From the NCBI GenBank assembly GCA_964352775.1, contig CAYGTK010000004.1, positions 594-64,593 on the forward strand: DNA of 64,000 nucleotides. Direction: 5' to 3'. Numbering within the stretch: the stretch's first letter is position 1; the number at the start of each line of letters is the position of its first letter. Made by a program: the position numbers and the translations under genes. Shown here one piece after another: positions 47,507-62,381 of this stretch. The notes below the pieces were generated by a model. It saw only the letters and a program-made list of their open reading frames with translations. It was not told the DNA's origin and searched no databases. This stretch comes from an uncultured Chitinophagaceae bacterium. GTDB lineage: Bacteria; Bacteroidota; Bacteroidia; Chitinophagales; CAIOSU01.

Positions 47507-47542
47507 TTTCTAATTTCACCATCTCAAAAGCCTTCTCAACCA

Positions 47543-48421: not shown

Positions 48422-48438
48422 ATCTTTAACTTAGCAAA

Positions 48439-48927
48439 GTGATACTCTTCTTAGATATTGACGGCGTACTTGCCACTTCCCCTCCTTGGAAAATGCCCAT
48501 TATTGTCAAAGATGGCTACTCGCAGTTTGATGAGGAATGTGTAAACAACTTAAACCAACTGCTTGGTAGGTATAAGTTTGGGATTTGGCTAAGCTCTACA
48601 CGTAGAGCCGCGAAAAGCCTGGTGGAGATGAATAAAATATTTGGACGGCGAGGCGTAAAGCAAGCAATTCATGCTTACGTGCCTATAGCAGATCAACCAC
48701 TTTCAAGAGCCGAAGAGCTAGAACGTTTTATTTCGAAGAAGGAGTTAAAAAATTTCTTGATCCTAGACGATGACACTAGCTTGAACGGCCTATCATCCTT
48801 TTATACGGATAGGTTGGTGTTAACGGAATTAACTAGGGGGTTTACCAAAGAGAAGTTGGAAGAGGCGAGGGGGAAGGTTAACCTAAACTTTGGATCAAAC
48901 ACTTCACCGCAACTACCTAGTAGGTAG
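48439..48927 (+). CDS. Small HAD-superfamily-like protein
   Basis: GTG start. The N-terminal FLDIDGVL is HAD motif I (DxD), and a late ILDDD acidic motif is also present. Its size and pattern remind me of stand-alone HAD domains seen in RNA-repair contexts, which I could not verify. Confidence 0.5.
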   Translation: MILFLDIDGVLATSPPWKMPIIVKDGYSQFDEECVNNLNQLLGRYKFGIWLSSTRRAAKSLVEMNKIFGRRGVKQAIHAYVPIADQPLSRAEELERFISKKELKNFLILDDDTSLNGLSSFYTDRLVLTELTRGFTKEKLEEARGKVNLNFGSNTSPQLPSR

Positions 48928-49383
48928 TATTACTGTTCCTTTCCCCCATTCATATCCAGCCGGAAAAGTTGGTGATACAATATGAAAAGGTGCGCTACCC
49001 TTAAACATGGCCTTTTCAACAGTACTCACTTGGTCTGAACAGATGTTAGCCATCATGACTGTTGAAGTAGAGGTGGTTTCATACACGCTTAAGTTCACCC
49101 AACGGGGTATTCCTGTTCGGGTGCAAATAGTATTTAGAAAAACATCTTCGTTTACCTTTTCTGGAATATTATTCCTTCCGCTTAGATCCTCAAAGTCTGC
49201 AATAAACTCTCTATTACTATAGCGATGGTTGCTAATGGAGTACATAATGTACTCTTGCCGTTCAGGGAAAATCATTCGACCCGCCATTACTCCAGCCAAA
49301 TACTTACATGTAATACTTGCAGTTTTAAGGTTGTGGCTAACCTCGGCCTTGTTCATTTCCCTATTTCTGTCGCGGAAGAACAC
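48913..49383 (-). CDS. Hypothetical protein
   Basis: 156-aa ORF with no recognisable motif. Its 3' end overlaps the convergent HAD-like gene by 15 nt. Confidence 0.35.
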   Translation of the reverse strand: MFFRDRNREMNKAEVSHNLKTASITCKYLAGVMAGRMIFPERQEYIMYSISNHRYSNREFIADFEDLSGRNNIPEKVNEDVFLNTICTRTGIPRWVNLSVYETTSTSTVMMANICSDQVSTVEKAMFKGSAPFHIVSPTFPAGYEWGKGTVILPTR

Positions 49384-49407
49384 GATGATTGAAGTTTAAG
49401 AAACTTA

Positions 49408-50109
49408 TCAATCCCGTCTTCCCAAGAAGATCATCACATAGTAAGCCAAGGTCATTAATGAACCCAAAGCGGCTACTACATAAGTCATGGCAGCCCATTT
49501 AAGCGCGTCTTTTGCGCCTTCGTGCTCTTGCCCTGTGGTTAGGCCTGCTCCATCTAACCAAGCCAAAGCGCGGTTGCTGGCATCAAACTCTACTGGCAGG
49601 GTAATGAAACTGAAAAAGGTCAATATAGCATAACAGCCAATGATAATGGGCAGCGCTACCATAAATAGGTTCGTGCCTAAAAGGTTGTTCAACACAAAGC
49701 CTCCAATAATAGAGCCTATCAAAACCATATTCAAAATGCGCCCGCTAGCCGCCTGCATAGGCACTAACTTTGAACGAAAGGTTAACCAGGTATAAGAGTT
49801 GGCGTGCTGAACGGCGTGACCACACTCGTGAGAGGCAACTGCTGCTGCAGCAATGCTTCTGCCTTGATACACCTCTGGACTTAGGTTTACTGTTTTGTTA
49901 ACTGGGTTGTAGTGGTCGGTCAATTTTCCTTGAACAGATTGCACTTTTACGTCGTGAATACCATTGTCGCTCAACATGCGTTCTGCTATTTCGCGACCGC
50001 TCATTCCTGCTCTAATGGGAATTTGGGAGTACTTCTTGAATTTGCTCTTCAGCATCTGACTAGCACCAAAGCTTAGCCCGAAGATCACTATCATTAGTAT
50101 GATGTACAT
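49408..50109 (-). CDS. Membrane zinc metallopeptidase (Zn_peptidase_2 family)
   Basis: N-terminal TM, KFKKYSQIP..GMSGREIAERML, HExxH site AVASHECGHAVQH, and C-terminal TM helices. Confidence 0.8.
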   Translation of the reverse strand: MYIILMIVIFGLSFGASQMLKSKFKKYSQIPIRAGMSGREIAERMLSDNGIHDVKVQSVQGKLTDHYNPVNKTVNLSPEVYQGRSIAAAAVASHECGHAVQHANSYTWLTFRSKLVPMQAASGRILNMVLIGSIIGGFVLNNLLGTNLFMVALPIIIGCYAILTFFSFITLPVEFDASNRALAWLDGAGLTTGQEHEGAKDALKWAAMTYVVAALGSLMTLAYYVMIFLGRRD

Positions 50110-50185
50110 AGTCTTATTTTATTTTGAAAGATACACAGCAAAAAACTTGCCCGATAGTAAATAGATGAAATTATGTCAGGTGATA

Positions 50186-51190
50186 CTAGACTAATACCGG
50201 TTGTCCGTCGACATAAGCAAAATCCTCCGCTATCTGATCCAGAACATTATAAATAACCTTTGCATCGTCCTCTGTCACCAACTTCATACGGTAAGGTTTA
50301 ATGTTAGGGAAGCCACGGAAGTAGTTAGTATAATGCCTGCGCATTTCCATTATTCCTACAATATCGCCCTTCCACTCTTGCGATCTTTTCAGGTGTTGTT
50401 TGGCAGCTGCTACACGTTCTTCTATAGTAGGCGGGGCTAGTTGCTCGCCAGTGGCCATAAAATGCTTTATCTCACGGAATATCCACGGATAACCAATAGA
50501 GGCACGGCCTATCATCACTCCATCTATTCCATATTTCTCACGAACAGCTACGGTTTTTTCACCACTATCTATGTCGCCATTACCAAATACAGGGATGTGC
50601 ATACGAGGGTTGTTCTTCACCTCGCCTATCAATGTCCAATCAGCATCGCCTTTATACATCTGTTTCCTGGTCCGCCCGTGTATAGAGATGGCCTTTATAC
50701 CTATATCTTGTAATCGCTCGGCTACATCAACTATGTATTGGGTATTGCTATCCCAACCCAGGCGGGTTTTAACGGTTACGGGCTTATCGGTCATTTTGAC
50801 AATAGCTTCCGTTAACTCTACCATTTTGGGGATGTTCTGCAATATTCCTGCGCCCGCTTCTTTGTTTACCACCTTTTTTACTGGGCAACCAAAGTTGATG
50901 TCAATAATGTCGGGGTTGGCGCGCTCCACTATGCTGGTGGCTTCTATCATGGAATCTATCTGCCCGCCAAATATCTGAATACCAACGGGGCGTTCATAGT
51001 CGTAGATGTCTAGCTTCTGCACACTTTTATCCGCATAACGGATGAGCCCTTCCGAAGAAATGAACTCAGTGTACATCACATCAGCACCGTTCTGCTTGCA
51101 TAATTCACGAAAGGGAGGGTCACTCACATCCTCCATGGGTGCTAACAATAAGGGAAACTCTCCCAACTCTATGTCGCCTATCTTTACCAT
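50186..51190 (-). CDS. dusB: tRNA dihydrouridine synthase
   Basis: LAPMEDVSDPPFR, INFGCP and HGRTR motifs, plus a C-terminal helical domain. Confidence 0.9.
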   Translation of the reverse strand: MVKIGDIELGEFPLLLAPMEDVSDPPFRELCKQNGADVMYTEFISSEGLIRYADKSVQKLDIYDYERPVGIQIFGGQIDSMIEATSIVERANPDIIDINFGCPVKKVVNKEAGAGILQNIPKMVELTEAIVKMTDKPVTVKTRLGWDSNTQYIVDVAERLQDIGIKAISIHGRTRKQMYKGDADWTLIGEVKNNPRMHIPVFGNGDIDSGEKTVAVREKYGIDGVMIGRASIGYPWIFREIKHFMATGEQLAPPTIEERVAAAKQHLKRSQEWKGDIVGIMEMRRHYTNYFRGFPNIKPYRMKLVTEDDAKVIYNVLDQIAEDFAYVDGQPVLV

Positions 51191-51259
51191 TTTTGCGATA
51201 TACTAACCTTTTTGCTCTGAAAATGGTTGCTATGCAAAGGTACAAAAAACGTAGGGTGG

Positions 51260-52204
51260 ATGTTTAACGACGGCTTAGAGCCGAACAAGGCGCAAAAGTA
51301 TTTAAGCTACACAGTTCTACTGTGGCTAGTGGGCACATTGGTTGGTGGTGTTATCAGTTTATTGTTCATCCTTGTTTTTAGCGAGGGCGGTATGTCTGCG
51401 GCTATAGACGAGCCTAGTAAAATGTATGAACTGGCCAGTACCAATACTATTCGCTGGGCACAGATATTGGCTTCTCTTTTTTCTTTTGTTATCCCTGTAT
51501 TTGGTGCTTTATATTTCTTGGGCTTAAGGCCTATTAAGTATTTAGGGCTAAATATTTTACCGCATTTAGCATTACTGAGCATGATAGCCTTCATCGTAAT
51601 GTTCTTTATGCCTTTGGTGAACATTACCCACCAACTAAATGCTAGTCTTGATCTGCCTGATGCTTTACAGTGGTTAGAAGATTGGATAAGACGTGGTGAG
51701 AACGATGCCAACTCCATTTTACTGCGGGTGTTACAAATGGGCTCCGTAGGGGCATTACTCTTGAACCTTTTAATGATAGGCGTACTGCCCGCTTTAGGAG
51801 AAGAACTCTTTTTTAGGGGGATGGTGCAAAAATTTGCCTCTCGCGCTTGGGCTAATCCCCATATCGCTATAATTTTTACCGCTTTCTTTTTCAGCTTCAT
51901 TCATTTTCAGTTCTTTGGCTTTCTGCCAAGGATGCTGCTGGGTATTATGTTCGGTTACCTCTATTTTTGGACCAACTCACTGTGGTACCCCATTTTCGCG
52001 CATTTGATATACAATGGCTCACAGGTAATAATGGCCTATCAGCTTCAGTTACAAGAAGGCGCAGAAGCTTTGAGTATGGACCCTTCAGGAGTGGATATTC
52101 CTTTAACGACTCTATTACTTAGCACGGTGGTATTTTTTGCGTTGATGGCTTTTTATCAACGGCTTGCTTCCATTCATCATAAACGCATTTTAGATGAGTA
52201 CTGA
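51260..52204 (+). CDS. CPBP family intramembrane glutamic endopeptidase (CAAX protease-like)
   Basis: Trimmed to the ATG at 51260. Motifs EELFFRG, FSFIHF and HLIYN. Confidence 0.8.
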   Translation: MFNDGLEPNKAQKYLSYTVLLWLVGTLVGGVISLLFILVFSEGGMSAAIDEPSKMYELASTNTIRWAQILASLFSFVIPVFGALYFLGLRPIKYLGLNILPHLALLSMIAFIVMFFMPLVNITHQLNASLDLPDALQWLEDWIRRGENDANSILLRVLQMGSVGALLLNLLMIGVLPALGEELFFRGMVQKFASRAWANPHIAIIFTAFFFSFIHFQFFGFLPRMLLGIMFGYLYFWTNSLWYPIFAHLIYNGSQVIMAYQLQLQEGAEALSMDPSGVDIPLTTLLLSTVVFFALMAFYQRLASIHHKRILDEY

Positions 52205-52424
52205 CAGTTGGGCACTGGTTTACAGCACTAAGCAACCTTGGCGGGCCGAGCTATTAAAAGCCTATTTAGCCGAGGCAGAGATAGGTGCCTTTATCATGAA
52301 CAAGCAAGATTCTGCCTATATTTCCATCGGCGAAATAGAAGTGTGGGTGAAAAAAGACCAAGTGGTACGAGCCCTTCACACCATAAAAAAGTATGAACAA
52401 GAAGAACCTGATACAGAGGGCTAG
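52194..52424 (+). CDS. DUF2007-like small protein (putative signal-transducing fold)
   Basis: 76 aa. W..VYST..PWRAELLKAYLAEAEI.AFIMN pattern. Overlaps the CPBP stop by 11 nt and the cdsA start by 32 nt. Confidence 0.55.
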   Translation: MSTDSWALVYSTKQPWRAELLKAYLAEAEIGAFIMNKQDSAYISIGEIEVWVKKDQVVRALHTIKKYEQEEPDTEG

Positions 52425-53226
52425 AACAGCAGTAGTGTTTGTGGGCTTACTCATTGCTATGGTAATGATAAACCAGTATACCTATGCCATATTGATGGGT
52501 GCTGTAATTGCCTTGAGCATTTTCGAGTTCATGAAACTCTCGTTCATGGCGCGCGAAAAGAATCGCATATCGCACCTTTACATGCCCTTAGCCATTGGTA
52601 TGGGCTTAACCTCCTTTGTGCTTACTTTTTTGTCGGTAAATGGAATTATTCCCGAAACCTGGGCTATCTTTTTTCCTGTAGCTCCGCTACTTTTCTTTGT
52701 GCTAGAATTATGGGCTGATTCTGCCCGCCCCTTTACCAATGTATCCATCAACATACTCAGCCTTTTCTACTTAGCCTACCCTATAAGCTTATTGAACTTC
52801 ATTGCTTTCCCCGGCGGGGAATACAATCGCTGGATAGTATTGTCCATGTTGCTCTTGATCTGGGTATATGATGCTGGAGCCTATGTATTTGGTTCTTTGT
52901 TTGGCAGAAACAAATTATTTCCACGTATCTCCCCAGGAAAAACTTGGGAGGGTAGCCTTGGTGGGCTATTTGCAGCCGAAATAGTTGCTTTTTTGATCTA
53001 CAAAATATTTGGTATTTACGAGCTACACCATTGGGTGGTAATAGCCATTATTATCTGCTTGTTCGGTACATTGGGCGACTTGATAGAATCGATGATGAAG
53101 CGTGGCTTAAAGATCAAAGATTCAGGAAATATATTACCTGGTCACGGGGGTATGCTCGATCGGTTCGATGCCTTTTATTTCATGATCCCTTTCGTTTACC
53201 TCTATATAAAGTTGTTCGTTAATTGA
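52393..53226 (+). CDS. cdsA: Phosphatidate cytidylyltransferase
   Basis: Polytopic membrane protein. C-terminal signature SPGKTWEG...GDLIESMMKRGLKIKDSGNILPGHGGMLDRFD. Confidence 0.9.
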   Translation: MNKKNLIQRARTAVVFVGLLIAMVMINQYTYAILMGAVIALSIFEFMKLSFMAREKNRISHLYMPLAIGMGLTSFVLTFLSVNGIIPETWAIFFPVAPLLFFVLELWADSARPFTNVSINILSLFYLAYPISLLNFIAFPGGEYNRWIVLSMLLLIWVYDAGAYVFGSLFGRNKLFPRISPGKTWEGSLGGLFAAEIVAFLIYKIFGIYELHHWVVIAIIICLFGTLGDLIESMMKRGLKIKDSGNILPGHGGMLDRFDAFYFMIPFVYLYIKLFVN

Positions 53227-53437
53227 TCTATCTATTAGACGCAAAATATTAAAACACAACTTTAAGTAATCCAATTTTTTTAACCAGTATTTAAATGCTG
53301 CACTTATTATTTAAATTCGGCGTTATACTTATTATTCATGACGCTTTTGGTTATCCTAAGTCTTTATTTATCAAATAGTCTCTACTATAGTTTATCCTTT
53401 TCTTAATTTTAATAACCTTTAAACAAGAGAAAAAAGC

Positions 53438-54067
53438 ATGAGTTTAAGGAAAGAAGTTTACACAATTGGTCATTCAAATCATACAATCGAATACTTTCTT
53501 GAATTATTGCAGTCACAAAACATTAACTGTTTAATAGACGTAAGAAGCAACCCTGTAAGTGGTTATAACCCGCAGTTTAATAAGGTTTCGCTTAAGGACT
53601 TTTTAAAGTCGAGCCGTATTGTTTACATGCATTTTGGTAAAGAGTTTGGCGCAAGGCATGAAGACTCGGATGTTTTAGATAATGAAGGTGTTGTTGATTT
53701 TGTTTCCTTTCGCAAGTCATTTGCCTTCCAGCAAGGGGTTGAAAGAGTTGATATGGGACTAGATAAAGGATACAGAATTGCACTCATGTGTTCTGAAGGT
53801 AATCCGCTAGAATGTCATAGATTTTCTATGATCTCCGTACACTTAGAAGAAATTGGCATATCTGTAAAGCACATTTTAAAGGATAAGACTGTAAAGTCGC
53901 ATATAGAGTTAGAAAAAGAACTTCTTAAAAAATATTCCGCCAAAATTCCTCGTCCTTCATTGTTTCAATCATCCGTTAACGAAGAACAACAAATTAGCCA
54001 TGCTTATAACCTACACAACAAAGAAATAGGTTGGCGATCTGACAGGCAAAAACACCTCACCAAGTAA
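53438..54067 (+). CDS. DUF488 domain protein (long form, with ~70-aa C-terminal extension)
   Basis: VYTIGHSNH N-terminal motif, LIDVRSNP, and the C-x-E-x5-CHR motif MCSEGNPLECHRF, as in DUF488/YeaO-like proteins. It is the first gene after a 211-bp AT-rich spacer. Confidence 0.75.
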   Translation: MSLRKEVYTIGHSNHTIEYFLELLQSQNINCLIDVRSNPVSGYNPQFNKVSLKDFLKSSRIVYMHFGKEFGARHEDSDVLDNEGVVDFVSFRKSFAFQQGVERVDMGLDKGYRIALMCSEGNPLECHRFSMISVHLEEIGISVKHILKDKTVKSHIELEKELLKKYSAKIPRPSLFQSSVNEEQQISHAYNLHNKEIGWRSDRQKHLTK

Positions 54068-54068
54068 C

Positions 54069-54509
54069 ATGATAGAATTATATACAATCGGCTTTACTAA
54101 AAAAAATGCGGAGAAGTTTTTCACCCTTTTAAAAAGTAACGATGTAGGAGAGATAGTGGACACAAGGATCAATAACACCTCTCAGCTTTCTGGCTTTGCA
54201 AAAGCAGATGACTTAAAATTCATTGGGAAATTAGTTGGAGATATAGATTATTCGCATAATATTGACTTTGCGCCCACCAAAGAGTTACTAGCCGAGTATA
54301 GAAAAAAGGGGCTTTCGTGGGAAGAGTATGAAGTAGAGTATTTAAACCTATTAGATATGCGAAATGTGGCGAAGAAGGTTAATGTAGACCATCTACATAA
54401 AAACTGTTTGTTATGTAGCGAGCACACACCGGAAAAGTGTCACAGAAGGCTGTTAGCTGAATATTTACAGCACGTGAAGGGAGGAATAAAAATTATACAC
54501 TTACAATGA
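54069..54509 (+). CDS. DUF488 domain protein (short, divergent paralogue)
   Basis: LYTIGFTKK replaces the GHS motif. IVDTRINN and LCSEHTPEKCHRRLLAEYL are present. Its start lies 1 nt after the upstream stop. Confidence 0.75.
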   Translation: MIELYTIGFTKKNAEKFFTLLKSNDVGEIVDTRINNTSQLSGFAKADDLKFIGKLVGDIDYSHNIDFAPTKELLAEYRKKGLSWEEYEVEYLNLLDMRNVAKKVNVDHLHKNCLLCSEHTPEKCHRRLLAEYLQHVKGGIKIIHLQ

Positions 54510-55150
54510 GGATTCTCTGTTTAGCCAATTCCTTTAAAACAGGAGGTAGATGTTTAGCGGGTATCTTATTAGATGAAAACAACACCCCTATATTAGAACA
54601 TAACAGACCAGTATGGATAAGGCCGATTTGTGACACAGACCATGGTCAGGTACCAAAGCATTTATGCGAACACTTCAGGCTTGGAGACATAATTGAATTG
54701 AACAACACTGTAAATGTTGGAGAAGGCTACCAAGCAGAAAACACAAGTTTTGATGAGAAATCTCTTCGAAAAGTAGGAGAGTATTCAAGTTCAATAACAC
54801 CATTTTGCGAGAACAGTTTTCGCTTTAACCTATTCGGAAACAGAGGTGGAGCAGTTATAAAAGACCAAATTGATAAAATCAACTATTCACTTTCATTAAT
54901 AGAAGTAAATAAATTTGAGATAGTTCAAAGGAGTTATGAGGGAAAAGAGCATCCCCAGATAAGAATGAAATTTACTTTTCAAGGGGCAGAATACGATTTA
55001 CCGATAACAGACCCAGCATTTCTAGAGCGATTAAACAAAAAACCTCACATTCTAGGTGATACCGATTCAATTTTTCTTACACTTTCACTTGGTGTAGAAC
55101 ATGAGGGGTGGTATTCTAAGCTGGTTGCAGCAGTTATTGTTCCCAAGTAG
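54506..55150 (+). CDS. Uncharacterised Cys/His-rich protein, third gene of the DUF488 cassette (possibly a dual-OB-fold protein)
   Basis: ATGA start/stop overlap with the upstream gene. N-terminal MRILCLANSFKTGGRCLAGILLD..WIRPICDTDHGQVPKHLCEH. I recall similar N-termini annotated as dual OB domain-containing protein, which I could not verify. Confidence 0.55.
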   Translation: MRILCLANSFKTGGRCLAGILLDENNTPILEHNRPVWIRPICDTDHGQVPKHLCEHFRLGDIIELNNTVNVGEGYQAENTSFDEKSLRKVGEYSSSITPFCENSFRFNLFGNRGGAVIKDQIDKINYSLSLIEVNKFEIVQRSYEGKEHPQIRMKFTFQGAEYDLPITDPAFLERLNKKPHILGDTDSIFLTLSLGVEHEGWYSKLVAAVIVPK

Positions 55151-55216
55151 ATGTATGGTAAGCTAATATAAAACGCCTTACTGCTAACCATTAAATACTA
55201 CAATTAGAACCATCGT

Positions 55217-55250
55217 TAGCCATAGCTGTTAGCTATGCTACGATTTTGTT
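55217..55250 (+). terminator. Possible terminator hairpin after the DUF488 cassette
   Basis: TAGCCATAGC-tgtta-GCTATGCTA is an imperfect 9-bp stem with one bulged C, followed by cgATTTTGTT. Confidence 0.35.
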
Positions 55251-55251
55251 C

Positions 55252-55259
55252 TATTTTTG
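55252..55259 (+). promoter_or_regulatory. Candidate -7 promoter box (TATTTTTG) for psd
   Basis: Perfect TAnnTTTG ending 27 nt upstream of the psd ATG. No clear -33 element. Confidence 0.4.
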
Positions 55260-55285
55260 AGCCCTATTAGAGATTCTTTACACGA

Positions 55286-55942
55286 ATGACCATACATAAA
55301 GAAGGATATAAAATACTAGCCGGAGTGGTTCTATTTCTGGTTGGCCTTAATGCCGTTTTACGGTATTTACTGCACGACTACGGATTGCTTATAACCGCGG
55401 TTACTATAGTTTCTGTCGCTCTGTTCCTTTTTGTGCTGTTGTTTTTCCGTAGTCCGCGACGCTTAATTTTTCAAGATGAGACTAACGTTATCTGTCCTGC
55501 AGATGGTAAGGTGGTTGTAATAGAGCAAACGGAAGAAAATGAGTATTTCAATGACAAACGTATTCAGGTATCCATTTTCATGTCGCCAAGCAATGTGCAT
55601 GTGAATAGACATCCTGTAAGTGGAATAGTAAAGTACATTAAGTACCACCCTGGTAAGTACTATGTAGCTTGGAACCCCAAATCATCCACTAAGAACGAAC
55701 GCAACACAGTAGTTGTGGAGTCTGGTGGTGTTGAGGTGCTAATCCGCCAAATAGCTGGAATGGTTGCCCGCCGCATAGTTCATTATTTAGAAGTAGGTGA
55801 AGAGGTAGAGCAGGGTAACGAACTTGGTTTTATAAAATTCGGATCGCGAGTAGATCTTTTTTTACCGTTAGACGCGGAAATTCTAGTAGACCTTAAACAA
55901 AAAGTGAAGGGTGGTAAGACTGTAATTGCCAAGTTGGCTTGA
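55286..55942 (+). CDS. psd: Phosphatidylserine decarboxylase proenzyme (short, Bacteroidota type)
   Basis: 218 aa with two N-terminal TM helices. ICPADGKV, SPSNVHVNR, and the self-cleavage motif FIKFGSRVDLFLP (G-S). Confidence 0.9.
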   Translation: MTIHKEGYKILAGVVLFLVGLNAVLRYLLHDYGLLITAVTIVSVALFLFVLLFFRSPRRLIFQDETNVICPADGKVVVIEQTEENEYFNDKRIQVSIFMSPSNVHVNRHPVSGIVKYIKYHPGKYYVAWNPKSSTKNERNTVVVESGGVEVLIRQIAGMVARRIVHYLEVGEEVEQGNELGFIKFGSRVDLFLPLDAEILVDLKQKVKGGKTVIAKLA

Positions 55943-55980
55943 TAGTTGCTCCCTTTTCATTATATTTGAACACTAAATTA

Positions 55981-56349
55981 ATGATCATGAAAAATTTGAT
56001 GACCCTTTTATTTGTAGTTGCTTTTGGCGCAATGTCTTTCGCACAAACTAGTACTACTGCTACCATGAAAGCGGTAAACCAAAAAGAAGTTGCTCAGCAA
56101 ACTGCTGAAGCTAAAACCATTACCCCTCTAAAAGAAGGTGTAACACAAGCAACGGTTACTGCTGATAAAGTAATACCTACAACGCCTAGCGTTGAAAGAT
56201 CAAAAGAAGCATTAAGCAAAACTGCTGCTAAGCCAGCTTGTACTGCAGCACAGAAGAAAAGTTGTGCTAAAACTTGTTCTGCTAAGAAAAAGTCAAGCAC
56301 TGCTGCTAACGTAGTTCCTGCTAAGACTACTGCTGCAAAAACCGAATAA
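55981..56349 (+). CDS. Small secreted low-complexity (Ala/Thr/Lys-rich) protein
   Basis: Trimmed to MIMKNLMTLLFVVAFGAMSFAQ. The mature part is A/T/K-rich and carries a Cys cluster, CTAAQKKSCAKTCSAKKK. A strong terminator follows. Confidence 0.5.
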   Translation: MIMKNLMTLLFVVAFGAMSFAQTSTTATMKAVNQKEVAQQTAEAKTITPLKEGVTQATVTADKVIPTTPSVERSKEALSKTAAKPACTAAQKKSCAKTCSAKKKSSTAANVVPAKTTAAKTE

Positions 56350-56373
56350 GTATTGCAGACTAACTAATTATAT

Positions 56374-56404
56374 AAAGCCCTTATGGTTCCATAAGGGCTT
56401 TTCT
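56374..56404 (+). terminator. Rho-independent terminator
   Basis: AAAGCCCTTATG-gttc-CATAAGGGCTTT, a 12-bp stem running into TTTTCT. Confidence 0.75.
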
Positions 56405-56466
56405 ATTACTTCATGAACTTTTTGCAAGCCGCTGTGTTTGCACCCTATCTTAAGAACACATCAATT

Positions 56467-57732
56467 ATGAGAACTTATCTAGTTTTTTTATTAGCTCTTT
56501 TAACAATTGGCACCACCTTTGCGCAAACTAAGTGGTCGCAAGTAGCCGATTATAATGGCGATGCACGTCATCACCCGATATGCTTTGCTATAGACTCTTT
56601 TGGTTACATCGTTTCTGGTAGTAACAACGCTGATGTAGCTTTTCCTGATGTTAATCGTTACAACGGCAATACTGGAACTTGGGATGAATTAACTGATTTT
56701 CCTGGCGGACCTCGTGGTTTCGGTGTTGGATTAGCTTATGACGGAAGTGGATACCTAGGGTTTGGGCTTGACAATGGTTTCCCGCAAATATTATATGATG
56801 ACTTATGGCGTTTTGACCCAGCTACTGAAACTTGGACAGAACTTGCGCCTTTACCCGACAGGCCAGGAGCAGCAGGTTCAGGAGGAAGGTTTCACCCAGC
56901 ATTTGTAGCCCTTAATGGGAAAATATACGTTGGTTTAGGTGGCGGTCGTTTCGGTAACGATAGCGACTGGTGGGAATATGATATTGCTACCAACGTTTGG
57001 ACACAGAAGGCTGATTTTCCTGGATTACAACGTCATCACCCTTATTATTTTGCCATTGGAGACCATGCTTACGTAGGCCTTGGCCACGGAGACAATGTTG
57101 GTGGACAGTTTAATATTTTCAATGATTTTTACAGATACGACCCAGCAACCGATACTTGGACAGCCATTGCCAGCTTACCTTCTCAAGGTCGTGTAGCAGG
57201 TACTCAGTTTGACTATGAAGGAAAAGGATATGTATTGGCTGGTCAAGATGAAAACCACGCTCACTTTGAAGGAGAGCTTTGGGAATATGACCCAGATTTA
57301 GACACATGGACACAATTAGAAAGTTTCCCATTACCAGGAGGACGCTGGGCACCAGGTTCTTTTGTTATCGATAGCTCTTTGTACTTCAATAGTGGTGAAG
57401 GGTCTAACAATCAGGTAAACAACGATGTTTGGAAATATCAGCTGCCAGCACCAGTTGTACCGGTAGACACTACACAAGACACTACCATGGTATCTGTGAA
57501 CGGTATCGCTCAGTTAGAGATCATCAAATTGTACCCTAACCCAGTTCAAAACCAATTGATAGTAGAGCAATTATCGCAAACACCTGTTTCTGTTAGTTTG
57601 TTAGACCTAAGCGGTAGAACAATGACAACTACAGTAGCTGAAGGTGTATCAACTATTGATATGGCTAACCTTCCATCTGGAATGTACATTGTTGCCATAG
57701 GTGAGAATCGCTACAAAGTGATAAAAGAGTAA
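56467..57732 (+). CDS. Kelch-repeat beta-propeller protein with T9SS type A CTD
   Basis: Trimmed to MRTYLVFLLALLTIGTTFAQ. Repeated ..W(E/R)YD(P/I)AT(D/E/N)(T/V)W(T)... Kelch-like units (WRFDPATETWTEL, WEYDIATNVWTQ, YRYDPATDTWTAI, WEYDPDLDTWTQL). C-terminal YPNPVQNQLIV..GMYIVAI tail. Confidence 0.75.
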   Translation: MRTYLVFLLALLTIGTTFAQTKWSQVADYNGDARHHPICFAIDSFGYIVSGSNNADVAFPDVNRYNGNTGTWDELTDFPGGPRGFGVGLAYDGSGYLGFGLDNGFPQILYDDLWRFDPATETWTELAPLPDRPGAAGSGGRFHPAFVALNGKIYVGLGGGRFGNDSDWWEYDIATNVWTQKADFPGLQRHHPYYFAIGDHAYVGLGHGDNVGGQFNIFNDFYRYDPATDTWTAIASLPSQGRVAGTQFDYEGKGYVLAGQDENHAHFEGELWEYDPDLDTWTQLESFPLPGGRWAPGSFVIDSSLYFNSGEGSNNQVNNDVWKYQLPAPVVPVDTTQDTTMVSVNGIAQLEIIKLYPNPVQNQLIVEQLSQTPVSVSLLDLSGRTMTTTVAEGVSTIDMANLPSGMYIVAIGENRYKVIKE

Positions 57733-57860
57733 TGAACGGGGGATTCGGTAATGAACATTCGTTTACTATAGTAGCCGTAGGGCTGGTATTTGTATTTGCC
57801 CTTATTTTTTACGGAGTATACTTAGACTATAAGCGCGTAAGTGGTGGCGATGATGACTAA
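57732..57860 (+). CDS. Possible 42-aa single-TM small protein (not in the ORF track)
   Basis: My own translation: MNGGFGNEHSFTIVAVGLVFVFALIFYGVYLDYKRVSGGDDD. Its ATG overlaps the Kelch gene stop (TAATG). It has a hydrophobic core of about 20 aa and a charged tail. No other support. Confidence 0.25.
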   Translation: MNGGFGNEHSFTIVAVGLVFVFALIFYGVYLDYKRVSGGDDD

Positions 57861-58564
57861 ACGCTTTCTTTAACTAGAAGCTTTAGTCCTCTGCCATGTA
57901 CGCTCATTATCTCTACTTTATCGTCTTGCTTTAAGTGCTTGCGCAGCTTACTGATGAATACATCCATACTGCGGCCAGTAAAGTAACTGTCGTTATCCCA
58001 AACTAGTTTTAGAGCTATCTCGCGCTCCAGCACCTCGTTTTTATTGAGGCATAACAAGCGAAGTAGATCAGCTTCTTTGGTAGTAAGGCGGTTGCTTTCG
58101 CCATTCAATACTAGCGAGCGGTCAGAGTATTTGAACGTGTAGTCACCAATTTCGAATTCAGTTTGTGTTTGTGGCGAAGTGCTGTCACCCATGCTTCTGC
58201 GAAGTACAGCTTCTACACGTAACTCCAACTCCTCCATGCTAAAGGGTTTGGTGATGTAATCATCTCCACCGATCTTGAAGCCTTCTATCTTATCTTCCTT
58301 CATGCTCTTAGCTGTCAAGAATATGATAGGTATCTTCTTATCTATCTTCCGCACCTGCTTGGTGAACGAGAAGCCATCCATTTTGGGCATCATAATATCT
58401 ACGATACAGATGTCAAATTGCCCACCATTGAATGCTCTTAAACCCAACTCACCATCTTCTTGTAGTGTTACGTTATAACCATTGTGCTCTAAATATTCTT
58501 TCAATACAAAACCCAAGTTCGGGTCGTCTTCTAGTAGTAGAAGCTTTGCTTTTATCTGGCTCAT
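57857..58564 (-). CDS. OmpR/PhoB-type response regulator (RprY-like)
   Basis: Receiver domain (LLLEDDPNLG, phospho-acceptor region DICIVDIMMPKMDG, LTAK) plus a winged-helix DNA-binding C-terminal domain (LTTKEADLLRLL..GRGLKL). Confidence 0.9.
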   Translation of the reverse strand: MSQIKAKLLLLEDDPNLGFVLKEYLEHNGYNVTLQEDGELGLRAFNGGQFDICIVDIMMPKMDGFSFTKQVRKIDKKIPIIFLTAKSMKEDKIEGFKIGGDDYITKPFSMEELELRVEAVLRRSMGDSTSPQTQTEFEIGDYTFKYSDRSLVLNGESNRLTTKEADLLRLLCLNKNEVLEREIALKLVWDNDSYFTGRSMDVFISKLRKHLKQDDKVEIMSVHGRGLKLLVKESV

Positions 58565-60330
58565 AGGGTTTCGTTTTTGTTGTTATTGTATGTTGGTAGG
58601 GTCAGTTCAAAAGTACTGCCCTTGCCTAATTCACTTTGTAAATGTACCGTGCCGCCATGTGCTTCCACCATCAGTTTCACATAGCTTAAGCCAAGCCCAA
58701 AACCTTTCACATCGTGGATGTTACCCGTAGGTACTCGGTAAAATTTCTCGAACACGCGTTTCTGCGATTCTTTGTTCATGCCGATGCCTTTGTCCTTTAC
58801 CGAGATGAATATACCGTTAGCCACATCCTTAGTAGTAATAGTGATATTGGGGGTTTCTTTGGAGTATTTAATGGCATTGTCTAACAGATTGAAAAGCACA
58901 TTGGTAAAGTGCACTTTGTCTGCATCAGCAAAAACCTGTGTGGCTTCTAGCTGGGTGTGTACCTCACCTTCTCTAGTTTCCAATTGCAAACTCAACTGAT
59001 CCATAACTTGCTGAAGAAGCTCATGAACGTTCACGGATTGTTTTTTTAGCTTAAAATCACCTTTGTCTAGCACTGCCATTTGCAATACGCGTTCTACTTG
59101 ACCACCTAGTCGTTTATTCTCGTCATGAATAATTCCTGCAAAGCGACCTCGTTTTTGTTCGTCTGCCGCAATAGTAGGATTAGTCAGCATTTCGCTGGCT
59201 AGTGATATCGTTGCTATTGGCGTTTTAAGCTCATGCGTCATGTTATTGATAAAATCCGTTTTCATATCCGACAATTTCTTCTGGCGGAAAATGATGTATA
59301 TGGTATAAGCAAAACACAAGCTGATGGCCAATATCAACACCATGGAAGTGATAGACATAGTACCCAAACTCTGAAAGATATAAGCGTCTTGCGCAGGAAA
59401 TTGAACCGACAAGAACAATGGCTGACTGAACATATCACTACCGAACAGCGATACTTGGTGCGCGTTAACGCTTGTCCGCTCGGGGTAGCTGTTTCCATTG
59501 AAATTGACACTAGTAACTAATGGCCTTCCGCCCCTGTGGTGTACGTTATATTCAAACGGTGTATGTATACCTCTAGCGGCTAACTCTTCCTTCAGTAAAA
59601 ACTCTATCTCCGCGGTATCTATTCGCTCCAACGGTGAGCGTGATGTTTGCAAGAAGTCGAAGAATAGATCACTGAACATACCCTTATGCGAGCTGAACTG
59701 GTTCAGACTCTTATTTATGGTTTGTTCCAGTCCGTTCAGTGTGTTGCTGTTCACATTAAAGGTGTGAACGGAATCGTCCATCTGTATTTTTATCTTGCTG
59801 TTGAACGAGTATTCGCCCAATGTATCTACCTCTACCACTGTATCCACCCCTATTCTGATATCGGAAAGGAAGTCCATTTTCTCTAGCCGCTTCCTATCTT
59901 TTATGCCCGTTTCTGGTTGTTTCTTACTAAAGATCCCTTTGCGGCCTTCCTCTAGCTCTATCTCTTCTTCCTCTTGATCATTAATTACTTGTAGCAGTTG
60001 TTTAAAGGCCTTAGCATTAGTATCGGTCAACGATATGTTCTGGTCAAAACTCAGCACCATACCTGGATTACGGCCCATCATATTCATGAAGTTGGGTGAT
60101 GGGGCTACGGTGCTTTGGCGCATCCAATCAAATCGGGTAGAAAGAAAGGAGAAGGCGTCTTGTTTCTCTAGTTTGTTCGACACCTCATCTAAAGCCTGAC
60201 CCACAGCGGTGTTGAACTGCGCCTCGCGCAATATCATCGCATTACGTATCCAGTATACTTGGATAACCACTAGGCAGGTAAGCACCAAGCCCATCAGTAT
60301 CGCAAAAGCTGTAACAGTCCTTTTATTCAT
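58561..60330 (-). CDS. Sensor histidine kinase (HisKA + HATPase_c), cognate to the adjacent regulator
   Basis: Trimmed to MNKRTVTAFAILMG. Two TM segments flank a periplasmic domain of about 290 aa. H-box FINNMTHELKTPIA, N-box LLDNAIKYS, G-boxes DKGIGM and GFGLGLSYV. The stop overlaps the regulator start by 4 nt. Confidence 0.85.
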   Translation of the reverse strand: MNKRTVTAFAILMGLVLTCLVVIQVYWIRNAMILREAQFNTAVGQALDEVSNKLEKQDAFSFLSTRFDWMRQSTVAPSPNFMNMMGRNPGMVLSFDQNISLTDTNAKAFKQLLQVINDQEEEEIELEEGRKGIFSKKQPETGIKDRKRLEKMDFLSDIRIGVDTVVEVDTLGEYSFNSKIKIQMDDSVHTFNVNSNTLNGLEQTINKSLNQFSSHKGMFSDLFFDFLQTSRSPLERIDTAEIEFLLKEELAARGIHTPFEYNVHHRGGRPLVTSVNFNGNSYPERTSVNAHQVSLFGSDMFSQPLFLSVQFPAQDAYIFQSLGTMSITSMVLILAISLCFAYTIYIIFRQKKLSDMKTDFINNMTHELKTPIATISLASEMLTNPTIAADEQKRGRFAGIIHDENKRLGGQVERVLQMAVLDKGDFKLKKQSVNVHELLQQVMDQLSLQLETREGEVHTQLEATQVFADADKVHFTNVLFNLLDNAIKYSKETPNITITTKDVANGIFISVKDKGIGMNKESQKRVFEKFYRVPTGNIHDVKGFGLGLSYVKLMVEAHGGTVHLQSELGKGSTFELTLPTYNNNKNETL

Positions 60331-60478
60331 AGCAAGTACAAATGTAACGTGCAAAGCGCCTCAATACTATTTCGTTAACATGTTTTAACATGGGCAGAAC
60401 CCTGAAACCGTAGACTCCTCTTAACATTCTTTAACTGTCATTAACTTTTCCTTAACCACTTCCACCTAGGCATTCATA

Positions 60479-60486
60479 TAGCTTTG
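60479..60486 (+). promoter_or_regulatory. Candidate -7 promoter box (TAGCTTTG) for the acidic T9SS cargo gene
   Basis: Perfect TAnnTTTG ending 32 nt upstream of the ATG at 60518. Confidence 0.4.
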
Positions 60487-60517
60487 AAATCATTCAAACA
60501 ACAAAACCCCATTTGCT

Positions 60518-61453: not shown

Positions 61454-61476
61454 GCTTTTTTCATACCTGTAGTATT

Positions 61477-61509
61477 CGGCTCGCTGTGGTGGCGGGCCGT
61501 TTTTTGTTT
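61477..61509 (+). terminator. Rho-independent terminator
   Basis: CGGCTCGC-tgtggtg-GCGGGCCG, an 8-bp stem with one G.U pair, followed by TTTTTTGTTT. Confidence 0.6.
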
Positions 61510-61513
61510 GATC

Positions 61514-62365: not shown

Positions 62366-62381
62366 CACCAGTATTGATGAT

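What the first reader, a model, noticed from the sequence alone, without database searches (positions are those of the whole stretch)
53227..55285. Three-gene DUF488 / DUF488 / Cys-His-rich orphan cassette between cdsA and psd: candidate undescribed nucleic-acid-directed (conflict or repair) module
Seen in the sequence:
- Three same-strand genes (53438-54067, 54069-54509, 54506-55150) are tightly coupled, with a 1-nt gap and then an ATGA start/stop overlap.
- A 211-bp very AT-rich spacer precedes them. A hairpin (55217-55250) and a fresh TAnnTTTG box for psd (55252-55259) follow them.
- My spot counts of three 60-nt samples inside the cassette gave about 30-38% G+C. Two samples in cdsA and psd gave about 40-48%. 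This suggests foreign composition but needs a proper calculation.

From established knowledge: cdsA and psd are consecutive steps of phospholipid synthesis and, as I recall, are commonly adjacent in Bacteroidota. The cassette therefore looks like an insertion into a conserved pair.

DUF488 (E. coli YeaO family) has no established function, and none of the three genes has an experimentally defined role that I know of.

Inference: the cassette has the shape of a self-contained accessory operon. A duplicated putative enzyme domain is paired with a putative nucleic-acid-binding partner, as in small defence or nucleic-acid modification/repair modules. The cassette carries no integrase, transposase or tRNA, so how it was acquired is unclear.
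Basis: partly seen in the sequence, partly recalled or inferred. Interest (0 to 1): 0.8.

Follow-up and report, generated by a model that had tools for sequence, protein, structure and literature searches.

The report
Inserted three-gene candidate defence cassette
A small, horizontally acquired operon of two DUF488 enzymes and a double-OB nucleic-acid-binding protein has been inserted between two phospholipid-synthesis genes; it matches PDC-M45, a catalogued but untested candidate anti-phage system, so it is a new copy of a known candidate, not a new kind of system.

Summary
Three tightly coupled same-strand genes (53438-55150) sit between cdsA and psd, and they are the lowest-G+C stretch of the 64-kb window.

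They are not orphans. Genes 1 and 2 are DUF488 paralogues, and gene 3 is a full-length Pfam DuOB (dual-OB) domain. Together they match all three components (B, C, A) of PADLOC candidate system PDC-M45. That candidate was predicted by "guilt-by-embedding", and I found no experimental test of it.

In three relatives that share the Dus|Rce1-DUF2007-CdsA-Psd block, cdsA is followed by psd after 82-147 bp. The cassette is therefore a lineage-specific insertion.

In all 79 loci recovered from other species, DuOB lies next to DUF488-B, and next to DUF488-C in 76 (fused to B in two, not called in one). No locus lies next to cdsA or psd. Contexts include:
- embedding inside Hma systems;
- islands with CBASS, PARIS-like, GAPS4 and GmrSD genes;
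- a second insertion into a housekeeping operon (Dyadobacter trp).

Most likely function: a mobile conflict module in which DuOB binds nucleic acid and a DUF488 B/C heterodimer, a cysteine enzyme of rhodanese/phosphatase type, processes a terminus. The mechanism is inferred, not shown.

Verdict: new member of a known but uncharacterised kind; moderate interest.

The parts
52393..53226 (+). cdsA (phosphatidate cytidylyltransferase), the upstream border of the insertion site
   Evidence: Pfam CTP_transf_1, E 4.7e-61. In relatives L080, L093 and L095 this gene is followed by psd after 128, 147 and 82 bp.
53227..53437 (.). 211-bp AT-rich spacer upstream of the cassette (25.1% G+C). It holds no perfect TAnnTTTG box; a one-mismatch box, TAATTTTA, lies 27 nt before the ATG.
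   Evidence: There is no Rfam match and no DNA similarity to the upstream regions of other trios.
53438..54067 (+). Gene 1: canonical DUF488 protein, equivalent to PDC-M45B (209 aa). It has a Rossmann-like alpha/beta core plus a helical C-terminal extension.
   Evidence: Pfam DUF488, E 7e-20. PADLOC PDC-M45B, E 7.8e-56. AlphaFold2 mean pLDDT 91.6. The family-invariant residues G11, D34, R36, S41, Y63, C118, E120, P123, C126-H127-R128 and H145 are all present.
54069..54509 (+). Gene 2: divergent DUF488 paralogue, equivalent to PDC-M45C (146 aa).
   Evidence: Pfam DUF488, E 1.2e-16, and DUF488-N3a at 33.9 bits against a cut-off of 27. PADLOC PDC-M45C, E 3.1e-58. Profile-profile match to the gene-1 family at 97.6% probability. 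It keeps the C116-S-E118-x2-P121-x2-C124-H-R motif.
54506..55150 (+). Gene 3: DuOB (dual OB-fold) protein, equivalent to PDC-M45A (214 aa).
   Evidence: Pfam DuOB, E 9.6e-40, covering positions 1-210 of 210. PADLOC PDC-M45A, E 1.9e-32. AlphaFold2 mean pLDDT 94.1, with two beta-barrel halves. Weak Foldseek matches to the tandem-OB DNA binders LEF-3, HIN-200 and RPA70.
55205..55262 (+). Stable imperfect hairpin followed by a T-rich tail. It is the likely intrinsic terminator of the cassette and overlaps the psd promoter box TATTTTTG (55252-55259).
   Evidence: Folding energy -19.5 kcal/mol, z = -5.0 against shuffles. Box located. An identical TATTTTTG box precedes psd in relative L080.
55286..55942 (+). 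psd (phosphatidylserine decarboxylase), the downstream border of the insertion site
   Evidence: Pfam PS_Dcarbxylase, E 1.2e-46. The closest relative found is 76% identical and lies directly after cdsA.

Best explanation
The cassette is an intact copy of the three-gene system catalogued as PADLOC candidate PDC-M45. It was acquired horizontally and inserted, in the same orientation as its neighbours, into the cdsA-psd intergenic region of a Chitinophagales-like Bacteroidota genome.

It most likely works as a biological-conflict (anti-phage or anti-mobile-element) module that acts on nucleic acid, in three steps.
1. The DuOB protein, a tandem OB fold, binds single-stranded nucleic acid or a DNA/RNA end. 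It acts as sensor or substrate adaptor. This is inferred from its fold and its fusions.
2. The two DUF488 paralogues form a heterodimer. This is inferred from strict co-occurrence, translational coupling and natural B-C fusions.
3. Each DUF488 protein has a Rossmann-like fold with an invariant cysteine at the end of a central strand. A loop and a C-H-R helix start follow it. This is the active-site layout of rhodanese/cysteine-phosphatase enzymes. I therefore infer that they carry out a cysteine-dependent phosphate or sugar-phosphate transfer or removal on a nucleic-acid terminus or a nucleotide. That would make invading DNA or RNA unusable, or damage the host's own nucleic acid abortively.

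Shown here: the identity of the three genes, that they travel as a unit, the insertion, the foreign composition and the defence-island contexts. Inferred only: the binding target, the chemistry and the biological outcome.
For: Identity:
- All three PDC-M45 component models match, with E-values from 1.9e-32 (A) to 3.1e-58 (C).
- Pfam DUF488 matches twice and DuOB once, all above their curated cut-offs.
- Every residue conserved in at least 90% of each family is retained in the window copies.

The genes travel as a unit:
- In 79 of 79 loci from other species, DuOB is adjacent to the B gene; in 76 a separate C gene is also called. B and C are fused in two loci and C was not called in one. The loci span Bacteroidota, Ignavibacteriales, Chloroflexota, Actinomycetota, Acidobacteriota, Nitrospira, Pseudomonadota, Desulfobacterota and one Methanobacterium bin.
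- Similarity scores of A, B and C to the window proteins co-vary across loci, with rho about 0.8.
- B and C are fused into one protein in L055 and L072.

Insertion and horizontal transfer:
- Relatives L080, L093 and L095 have Dus|Rce1-DUF2007-CdsA-Psd with only 82-147 bp between cdsA and psd.
- The cassette is the lowest-G+C stretch of the window.
- In 58 of 68 other loci the trio has lower G+C than its flanks. The median difference is -4.5 points, Wilcoxon p = 2e-10.
- None of the 79 loci has cdsA or psd nearby.

Conflict context:
- The trio is embedded between HmaB and HmaC in L072 and L079.
- On an Agrobacterium conjugative plasmid it lies next to CBASS, HORMA, ImmA/IrrE, TcmP-DUF5131 and an integrase.
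- In L091 it lies next to GmrSD, GAPS4b and an AAA_15+DUF4276 (PARIS-like) pair.
- In L090 it lies next to nSTAND3, AIPR and HigB.
- Among the immediate neighbours of the other loci are hits to REase_II, MTase_II, pAgo, DpdF and PsyrT models; a PDC-S02-type YhcG nuclease lies directly downstream in L024.
- DuOB is found fused to typical sensor or DNA-binding modules: LRR+Sel1, FGE-sulfatase and HTH_40.

Folds:
- The DuOB model has pLDDT 94. Its only PDB similarities are tandem-OB DNA binders: LEF-3, p202/AIM2/IFI16 HIN domains and RPA70.
- The DUF488-B model has pLDDT 91.6. Its weak PDB hits are PTP-fold cysteine phosphatases (4kyr, 2i6i, 5z59, 5bx1, 7mpc) and tetrapyrrole-type methylases.
[quoted passage not shown] I could not read that paper here and recall it from memory; its citation appears.
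Against: - No experiment exists for PDC-M45. The PDC candidates were predicted by embedding and were not tested. No paper in the library mentions PDC-M45 or DuOB in its text.
- The window copy and the Dyadobacter copies sit alone inside housekeeping operons, not in defence islands.
- Many neighbours in other loci are ordinary metabolic genes.
- Structural similarities are weak, with TM-scores of about 0.35. No solved homologue exists by sequence, even with profiles.
- The motif is C-x9-R, not the phosphatase signature C-x5-R.
- DuOB carries many invariant polar residues (C5, N8, S9, K11, R15, C16, R39, Q76, E78, N79, T168, D169, K205). It may therefore be an enzyme or a small-ligand binder and not a plain DNA binder.
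- A subset of trios carries an ACP-LnmK acyltransferase/decarboxylase gene, which the model does not explain.
Confidence: 0.5

Rival explanations
1. The trio is a selfish or counter-defence module of mobile elements and not a host defence. Examples would be an addiction (toxin-antitoxin-like) cassette or an anti-restriction/entry function. It spreads as a minimal cassette and persists wherever it lands.
For: - It occurs on a linear Rhodovastum plasmid, among many small hypothetical genes and next to a giant SNF2-related protein.
- It occurs on a conjugative Agrobacterium plasmid and on three IMG/VR viral contigs; A, B and C are all present on L085 and L086, while L084 shows only A and C.
- One homologue cluster is labelled Caudoviricetes by a source.
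- It inserted alone into two different housekeeping operons, with no defence neighbours: cdsA|psd here and trpB|trpA in Dyadobacter.
Against: - No match in 50,697 GenBank phage records and only 2 of 72,556 plasmid records.
- The 'Caudoviricetes'-labelled homologue sits in a bacterial-looking defence island, next to carB, GmrSD and PARIS-like genes.
- Embedding inside Hma systems is typical of defence genes.
- There is no small antitoxin-like partner. All three proteins are conserved and similar in size across phyla.
Confidence: 0.15
2. The trio is an accessory nucleic-acid repair or end-healing module working on the cell's own DNA or RNA. DuOB would recognise damaged single-stranded regions or ends, and DUF488 B/C would remove or transfer blocking phosphate or sugar groups. 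Invaders would not be the target.
For: - The tandem-OB fold resembles RPA, LEF-3 and SSB-type proteins.
- DUF488 shows a cysteine-phosphatase-like layout.
- RecG and other DNA-metabolism genes are among the neighbours.
- Several copies sit in housekeeping contexts.
Against: - The distribution is sparse and patchy: 361 matching stretches in a collection of 185,579 species genomes.
- Composition is foreign in most hosts.
- The trio recurs in or inside defence systems.
- The fusions to LRR and FGE-sulfatase sensor domains are not features of core repair pathways.
Confidence: 0.15
3. The trio acts on a small molecule and not on a polymer. The substrate could be a nucleotide, an NAD/ADP-ribose derivative or an acylated metabolite. 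DuOB would be a ligand-binding or enzymatic subunit, and the system would be a signalling or biosynthetic module.
For: - In 12 loci of the clade closest to the window cassette, a fourth gene follows DuOB directly. It encodes an acyl-carrier-like domain fused to an LnmK-family acyltransferase/decarboxylase, at 136-150 bits against a cut-off of 100.
- DuOB has an unusually large set of invariant polar residues on the first OB barrel.
- Related clades of the same superfamily (DUF4326) are proposed to process phosphates on ADP-ribose products (PMC9503650).
Against: - The fourth gene is absent from the window and from most trios, so the core function does not need it.
- The only structural neighbours of DuOB are DNA binders.
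- DuOB is fused to HTH_40 DNA-binding domains.
Confidence: 0.1
4. The three genes are native, vertically inherited members of the phospholipid-synthesis operon.
For: - They have the same orientation as cdsA and psd.
- No perfect Bacteroidota promoter box lies in the upstream spacer, so read-through from cdsA is possible.
Against: - They are absent from the same junction in three syntenic relatives.
- They are the lowest-G+C stretch of the window.
- They are never next to cdsA or psd in 79 other loci.
Confidence: 0.02

Closest known systems
PADLOC-DB candidate system PDC-M45 (Payne et al., bioRxiv 10.1101/2024.01.29.577857; cassette CAS_00153, three protein families)
   Same: All three component models match the three window genes one-to-one: A = DuOB, B = long DUF488, C = short DUF488. 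It has the same three-gene cassette composition. I also found the trio embedded inside and beside defence systems, which is the criterion used to nominate PDCs.
   Different: - The window copy is only 59% (DuOB) and 75% (DUF488-B) identical to the nearest homologues of those two proteins; gene 2 was not searched.
- Its gene order is B-C-A, as in most Bacteroidota, whereas the supplement lists three families in an order I could not map.
- It is not embedded in a defence system. It sits alone between two lipid-synthesis genes.
- PDC-M45 itself has no experimental validation that I could find.
DUF488 family (Pfam PF04343; E. coli YeaO) within the rhodanese/cysteine-phosphatase superfamily
   Same: - Both genes pass the Pfam cut-off.
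- Both have a Rossmann-like fold with an invariant Cys at a strand end, followed by a loop and a helix start carrying C-H-R.
- The weak structural neighbours are PTP-fold phosphatases and tetrapyrrole-type methylases.
   Different: - YeaO-type proteins are single short proteins. Here two diverged paralogues are always paired, and sometimes fused, and are always linked to DuOB.
- The Cys-to-Arg spacing is C-x9-R, not the C-x5-R of classical phosphatases.
- No biochemical activity is known for any DUF488 protein. One paper states 'no literature describing yeaO' (10.1101/2024.05.24.595836).
Tandem-OB nucleic-acid binders: baculovirus LEF-3, HIN-200 domains (AIM2, IFI16, p202) and RPA70 DBD-A/B
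   Same: Two consecutive OB-like beta-barrels in about 200 residues. These are the best and only significant PDB matches (E 4e-4 to 5e-3), and LEF-3 and SSB proteins recur in the viral library. Like the HIN domains, DuOB lies in an immune context.
   Different: - TM-scores are only about 0.3-0.4 and sequence identity about 10%.
- The relative orientation of the two barrels differs.
- DuOB has its own invariant polar signature (CLANSxK, GRC, WxRP, QxEN, TDP), which is absent from those families.
- Membership in any of them is not supported.
Hma-embedded and other 'embedded' defence candidates (HEC/PDC class)
   Same: In L072 and L079 the trio lies between HmaB and HmaC, in the same orientation. 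This is the same kind of embedding by which HECs were found, seven of which were confirmed experimentally.
   Different: The confirmed systems are other gene families. The trio has not been tested, and the window copy is not embedded.

Membership tests
PADLOC PDC-M45 | A protein matching the PDC-M45A model (DuOB component) | tested here: met
   Gene 3 against PDLC04653, E 1.9e-32, covering 6-225 of 230 model positions.
PADLOC PDC-M45 | A protein matching the PDC-M45B model (long DUF488) | tested here: met
   Gene 1 against PDLC04657, E 7.8e-56, covering 4-197 of 204 model positions.
PADLOC PDC-M45 | A protein matching the PDC-M45C model (short DUF488) | tested here: met
   Gene 2 against PDLC04658, E 3.1e-58, covering 2-144 of 145 model positions.
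PADLOC PDC-M45 | The three genes are adjacent in one cassette | tested here: met
   A 1-nt gap and a 4-nt overlap, all on the same strand. DuOB and DUF488-B are adjacent in all 79 other loci, with a separate C gene called in 76.
PADLOC PDC-M45 | Anti-phage function | not testable with these tools
   The candidate was predicted by embedding. No validation was found in the searchable literature.
Pfam DUF488 (PF04343) | Score above the curated gathering cut-off (22.2 bits) | tested here: met
   Gene 1 scores 72.3 bits and gene 2 scores 61.8 bits.
Pfam DUF488-N3a (PF22751, 'active' subclade) | Score above the cut-off (27 bits) | tested here: met
   Gene 2 scores 33.9 bits over residues 66-135. Gene 1 has no match. 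The 'inactive' N3i model scores only 17.4 bits, below its cut-off.
Pfam DuOB (PF22557) | Full-length match above the cut-off (27 bits) and a two-OB-barrel architecture | tested here: met
   137.3 bits over positions 1-210 of 210. The AlphaFold2 model shows two all-beta halves at pLDDT 94.
Rhodanese / cysteine-phosphatase superfamily | Rossmann-like fold with a catalytic Cys at the end of a central strand, followed by an anion-binding loop and a helix N-terminus | tested here: inconclusive
   The topology and the invariant residues fit: C118 ends strand 114-118, and C126-H127-R128 start helix 127-138. But Foldseek matches to PTP-fold enzymes are weak (best E 2e-3, TM 0.36). The loop is C-x9-R, not C-x5-R. 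The paper that makes this classification could not be read.
Rhodanese / cysteine-phosphatase superfamily | Cysteine-dependent phosphate, sulfur or related group transfer activity | not testable with these tools
   This needs biochemistry.
HIN-200 / RPA / LEF-3 tandem-OB DNA binders | Detectable sequence or close structural homology to the family | tested here: not met
   No sequence match, even with a profile. The structural matches have TM-scores of only 0.3-0.4 at about 10% identity. The similarity is at fold level only.

The most novel reading that the evidence does not exclude
PDC-M45 could be a mechanistically new immune system. In this reading, a dedicated double-OB protein captures a specific nucleic-acid end or single-stranded intermediate of an invader. 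It presents that substrate to a two-subunit cysteine enzyme of a barely explored rhodanese/phosphatase clade, which chemically alters the terminus by phosphate or sugar-phosphate transfer. In the four-gene variants an ACP-LnmK partner would add acylation. The cassette would be so compact and self-sufficient that it spreads by landing inside housekeeping operons without any recombinase of its own.
Probability: 0.25. Interest if true: 0.8.

Novelty: new member of a known kind. Interest (0 to 1): 0.45.

Why it matters
The three-gene system is one of many catalogued but untested defence candidates, and no DUF488 or DuOB protein has a known activity. This instance adds four things:
- a clean natural 'insertion versus empty site' pair, cdsA|psd with and without the cassette;
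- evidence that the trio is a strict, phylum-crossing unit with two gene orders and natural B-C fusions;
- direct embedding in Hma systems;
- a previously unlisted fourth partner (ACP-LnmK) in the closest clade.

Together these make PDC-M45 a well-defined, compact target of 1.7 kb for experimental work. Characterising it could give the very widespread DUF488 family (including E. coli YeaO) its first biochemical function. It would not overturn current views: small accessory defence cassettes of unknown mechanism are now common finds.

Tried and rejected
- PDB sequence searches with single proteins and with family profiles found no homologue for any of the three genes.
- An Rfam scan of 52900-55600 found nothing meaningful: one miRNA model at E 0.42.
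- A search for target-site duplications or terminal inverted repeats around the cassette found only 10-17-nt chance-level matches.
- No tRNA lies nearby, so the insertion mechanism remains unknown.
- Alignment of the cdsA-psd intergenic DNA with three relatives could not define the exact insertion borders, because the sequences are too diverged.
- The upstream spacer shows no DNA similarity to the upstream regions of other trios.
- The simple sigma-70 and terminator scan was uninformative for this organism and missed the bulged hairpin.
- An exact-sequence look-up of the window's Psd found no record.
- tblastn of DuOB against GenBank phages found nothing. IMG/VR gave only three distant loci.
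- Literature searches returned no text hits for 'PDC-M45', 'DuOB' or 'DUF488-N3'. DUF488 and YeaO papers give no function.
- The key comparative paper, Burroughs & Aravind 2023 (PMC10034599), is not held.
- I considered whether DuOB is the 'ARPP' protein described with rhodanese-phosphatase enzymes in PMC9503650. The described fold differs (a duplicated beta-meander with an inserted barrel), so I did not equate them.
- I considered a zinc site for the Cys/His residues of gene 3. Only C5 and C16 are invariant, with H46 near-invariant and C42 variable, so a four-ligand site is not conserved.


Full report

Yes. ORF listing gives three same-strand genes at exactly the stated coordinates: 53438-54067, 54069-54509 and 54506-55150. 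They are flanked by CdsA (52393-53226, Pfam CTP_transf_1, E 5e-61) and Psd (55286-55942, PS_Dcarbxylase, E 1e-46).

- Gene 1 ends in TAA at 54065-54067. One base (C) separates it from the ATG of gene 2. Genes 2 and 3 overlap in ATGA.
- The upstream spacer is 211 bp at 25.1% G+C.
- The downstream hairpin folds at -19.5 kcal/mol, z = -5.0 against dinucleotide shuffles. A T-rich tail follows, and the TATTTTTG box lies at 55252.
The cassette coding sequence is 36.7% G+C against 42.4% for the window. This is z = -3.1 among 1713-bp windows, lower than every non-overlapping window. The three genes are the three lowest-G+C ORFs of 51.
- No tRNA lies within 45000-64000.
- There are no flanking repeats above chance and no Rfam family in the region.

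**2. What the genes are**

Genes 1 and 2 are both DUF488, at 72 and 62 bits against a cut-off of 22. Gene 2 also passes the Pfam 'active DUF488-N3' subclade model. Gene 3 is not an orphan: it is a full-length member of Pfam DuOB, 'dual OB-containing domain', at 137 bits.

Against PADLOC-DB the three proteins match the three components of one candidate system, one to one:
- gene 1 = PDC-M45B (E 8e-56);
- gene 2 = PDC-M45C (E 3e-58);
- gene 3 = PDC-M45A (E 2e-32).

PDC systems come from Payne et al. (bioRxiv 10.1101/2024.01.29.577857). These authors nominated uncharacterised cassettes found embedded in BREX, DISARM or type I RM systems and added them to PADLOC. Only the Hma-embedded candidates were tested experimentally. 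Their supplement lists a three-family cassette, CAS_00153, 'Assign as candidate PDC-M45', with the number 68 in the first column. I take that number to be a count, but I did not read the column header. [quoted passage not shown] No paper in the library mentions PDC-M45 or DuOB in its text.

**3. Is it an insertion?**

The organism has no close sequenced relative. The best Psd homologue is 76% identical and the next ones about 65%. Even so, three relatives keep the window's gene order:
- L093, whose Psd is named by a source as from a Chitinophagales MAG;
- L095;
- the short contig L080, which carries the closest Psd.

That order is Dus (minus strand) | Rce1-like - DUF2007 - CdsA - Psd - small ORF. 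Only 147, 82 and 128 bp separate cdsA from psd in these relatives, against 2059 bp in the window.

In a Pedobacter genome and two other lineages psd lies elsewhere. The cdsA-psd pair is therefore conserved only locally in the phylogeny.

The intergenic DNA is too diverged to place the borders exactly. How the cassette got in is unknown.

**4. Does the trio travel as a unit?**

A scan of one genome per species (185,579 species) with a DuOB alignment found 361 stretches encoding a relative, and 79 loci were kept. I searched the six-frame ORFs of those loci with the window proteins.

- The DuOB gene is adjacent to a gene-1-like DUF488 in all 79, and to a separately called gene-2-like DUF488 in 76. 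In two loci the paralogues are fused into one protein with two DUF488 domains. In one locus the second paralogue was not called.
- The hosts span Bacteroidota, Ignavibacteriales, Chloroflexota, Actinomycetota, Acidobacteriota, Nitrospira, Pseudomonadota, Desulfobacterota and a Methanobacterium bin.
- Two gene orders dominate: B-C-A in 49 loci, as in the window, and A-B-C in 15. Variants with a duplicated DuOB also occur.
- Similarity scores of the three proteins co-vary across loci, with rho about 0.8.
- None of the 79 loci has cdsA or psd nearby.
- In 58 of 68 loci with enough flanking sequence, the trio has lower G+C than its flanks. The median difference is -4.5 points, the largest is -26, and Wilcoxon p = 2e-10. 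This is the usual mark of recent horizontal acquisition.
- Family size is modest: 3395 representatives at 50% identity among 1.84 billion proteins.

**5. Genomic company**

Contexts are heterogeneous, but defence contexts recur.

- In an Acidobacteriota bin (L072) and a Nitrospira bin (L079) the trio lies between HmaB and HmaC of an Hma system, downstream of HmaA.
- On Agrobacterium plasmid pAt1D1108a it lies between a CBASS-HORMA-AAA operon with an HTH/ImmA pair and a TcmP-DUF5131 pair. An integrase and an antitoxin gene are close by.
- In L091/L092 it lies between GmrSD-carB and GAPS4b plus an AAA_15+DUF4276 (PARIS-like) pair.
- In L090, which carries one of the closest DuOB homologues to the window's, it lies beside nSTAND3, AIPR and HigB-HTH/M78 genes.
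- In Hanamia a PDC-S02-type YhcG nuclease is directly downstream.
- In five related loci, four Dyadobacter species and an uncultured Cytophagales MAG, the trio sits inside the tryptophan operon: trpC-trpF-trpB-[B-C-A]-Dabb-trpA. This is a second case of a lone cassette inserted co-directionally into a housekeeping operon, as in the window.
- The trio is rare on sequenced plasmids (2 of 72,556), absent from GenBank phages, and present on only three IMG/VR contigs.

**6. Structure and likely mechanism**

*DuOB.* AlphaFold2 with a 26-sequence alignment gives a confident model, pLDDT 94 and pTM 0.91, made of two all-beta halves. No solved structure is close. The only PDB matches with E below about 5e-3 are tandem-OB DNA binders: baculovirus LEF-3, HIN-200 domains of p202/AIM2/IFI16, and RPA70. 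Their TM-scores are 0.3-0.4. The viral library gives the same picture. The family-invariant residues lie mostly on strands 1-3 and 5 of the first barrel, the usual OB binding face: C5-L-A-N-S9-x-K11, R15-C16, W37-x-R39-P40 and Q76-x-E78-N79. A second cluster lies in the second barrel: S128, T168-D169-P170 and K205. DuOB is found fused to HTH_40, to a Gp157-like region, to FGE-sulfatase, and to LRR+Sel1 repeats. These are DNA-binding and sensor modules typical of conflict systems.

*DUF488-B.* The model (pLDDT 91.6) is a five-stranded Rossmann-like alpha/beta domain with a helical tail. Invariant residues sit at the C-terminal ends of the strands:
- G11-H12-S13 after strand 1;
- D34-x-R36-S37 after strand 2;
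- Y63 in strand 3;
- C118-x-E120 at the end of strand 4;
- then a loop and C126-H127-R128 at the start of the next helix.

*DUF488-C.* Gene 2 keeps the same C-S-E-x2-P-x2-C-H-R motif and is a clear paralogue, with 97.6% hhalign probability.

*Fold class.* Foldseek finds only weak neighbours. They are cysteine phosphatases of the PTP fold and tetrapyrrole-type methylases. [quoted passage not shown] They predict DNA-end-processing roles for this clade in conflict systems. I could not read that paper, so this is a lead and not a test. A related paper from the same group proposes phosphate processing on ADP-ribose products for DUF4326 (PMC9503650).

*Model.* I infer that B and C form a heterodimeric cysteine enzyme acting on a phosphate-bearing sugar at a nucleic-acid end or on a nucleotide. 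DuOB would supply the nucleic-acid recognition. The outcome would be interference with invading DNA or RNA. Each of these steps is inference; nothing about activity is shown.

**7. What does not fit**

- Twelve loci of the clade closest to the window cassette carry a fourth co-directional gene directly after DuOB, and another has a remnant. The twelve include the two closest relatives, L089 and L090.
- That gene encodes an acyl-carrier-like domain fused to an LnmK-family acyltransferase/decarboxylase (TIGR04098, 136-150 bits against a cut-off of 100). It has no PADLOC model.
- The window lacks it, with only 135 bp between DuOB and psd. It implies acyl chemistry that my model does not explain, and it keeps a small-molecule reading alive.
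- The density of invariant polar residues in DuOB would suit an enzyme or a specific-ligand binder as well as a DNA binder.

**8. Comparison with what is known, and verdict**

The cassette meets every sequence-level criterion for PDC-M45, DUF488 and DuOB. It is fold-level similar to tandem-OB DNA binders but is not a member of those families. Its link to the cysteine-phosphatase superfamily is inconclusive.

The window copy is a diverged new member: 59% (DuOB) and 75% (DUF488-B) identity to the nearest homologues of those two proteins; gene 2 was not searched. It belongs to a known but experimentally uncharacterised candidate system.

Interest is moderate. This is a compact, well-delimited target that could give the widespread DUF488 family its first function. 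For E. coli YeaO one paper notes there is no literature at all (10.1101/2024.05.24.595836). But finding one more copy of a catalogued candidate is not surprising in itself.

Noticed in passing
L003, L004, L006, L008, L010, L013, L015, L016, L017, L019, L089 (7730-8827), L090 (8643-9737, split); remnant in L027 (8304-8531): A fourth gene of about 360 aa follows DuOB directly in the clade closest to the window cassette, while the other flanks are unrelated. It is an acyl-carrier-like domain fused to an LnmK-family acyltransferase/decarboxylase (TIGR04098, 136-150 bits against a cut-off of 100). It has no PADLOC model and is absent from the window. It suggests acyl chemistry in a four-gene variant of the system.
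   Followed up: partly
L029, L030, L033, L034 (Dyadobacter spp.) and L057: The trio is inserted, co-directionally, inside the tryptophan operon between trpB and Dabb-trpA. This is a second independent case of the lone cassette landing in a housekeeping operon without any recombinase gene.
   Followed up: partly
L072 (2913-14019) and L079 (2881-15100): The trio is embedded inside an Hma defence system, in the order HmaA ... HmaB - [DuOB - DUF488 - DUF488] - HmaC. The PADLOC E-values for the Hma components are 0, except HmaC in L072 at 1e-262.
   Followed up: yes
L055 (8812-9984) and L072 (10678-11736): The two DUF488 paralogues are fused into a single protein with two DUF488 domains, in B-then-C order. 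This is a natural fusion arguing that B and C act together as a pseudo-dimer.
   Followed up: partly
L038, L042, L045, L051 (Prevotella); proteins P0393, P0434, P0419, P0472, P0499: Prevotella loci carry two DuOB genes (A-B-C-A'); in L038 the second was scanned and has a C-terminal Siphovirus-Gp157-like region. Elsewhere DuOB is fused to FGE-sulfatase, to HTH_40, and to LRR+Sel1 repeats plus HTH_40.
   Followed up: partly
L087 (Rhodovastum atsumiense linear plasmid RHOApe, trio at 8980-10776): The trio sits in a run of small hypothetical genes, next to a small zinc-finger gene and a very large SNF2-related protein. This looks like a mobile-element 'entry' region and leaves open a counter-defence role.
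   Followed up: no
window 55939-56349 (+): A 136-aa ORF overlaps the psd stop. It is Ala/Lys/Thr-rich with an N-terminal hydrophobic stretch and has the lowest GC3 (0.24) of the window's ORFs. ORFs of 116-120 aa without Pfam hits follow psd at the same place in L093 and L095, so it may be a conserved small gene.
   Followed up: no
window 53288-53336 and 53207-53264: The AT-rich spacer contains two imperfect direct repeats about 20-25 bp apart: TATTTAAATGCTGC / TATTTAAATTCGGC, and ACTTATTATT twice. A 17-nt inverted repeat brackets the cdsA stop codon. These could be a regulatory or terminator element, but they are not conserved upstream of other trios.
   Followed up: partly
L061-L064, L069 (Chloroflexota chromosomes): Directly upstream of the duplicated DuOB genes is a DUF4928 protein (E 1e-87), preceded by a protein of about 540 aa. 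This may be a restriction-modification pair; it was not examined further.
   Followed up: no
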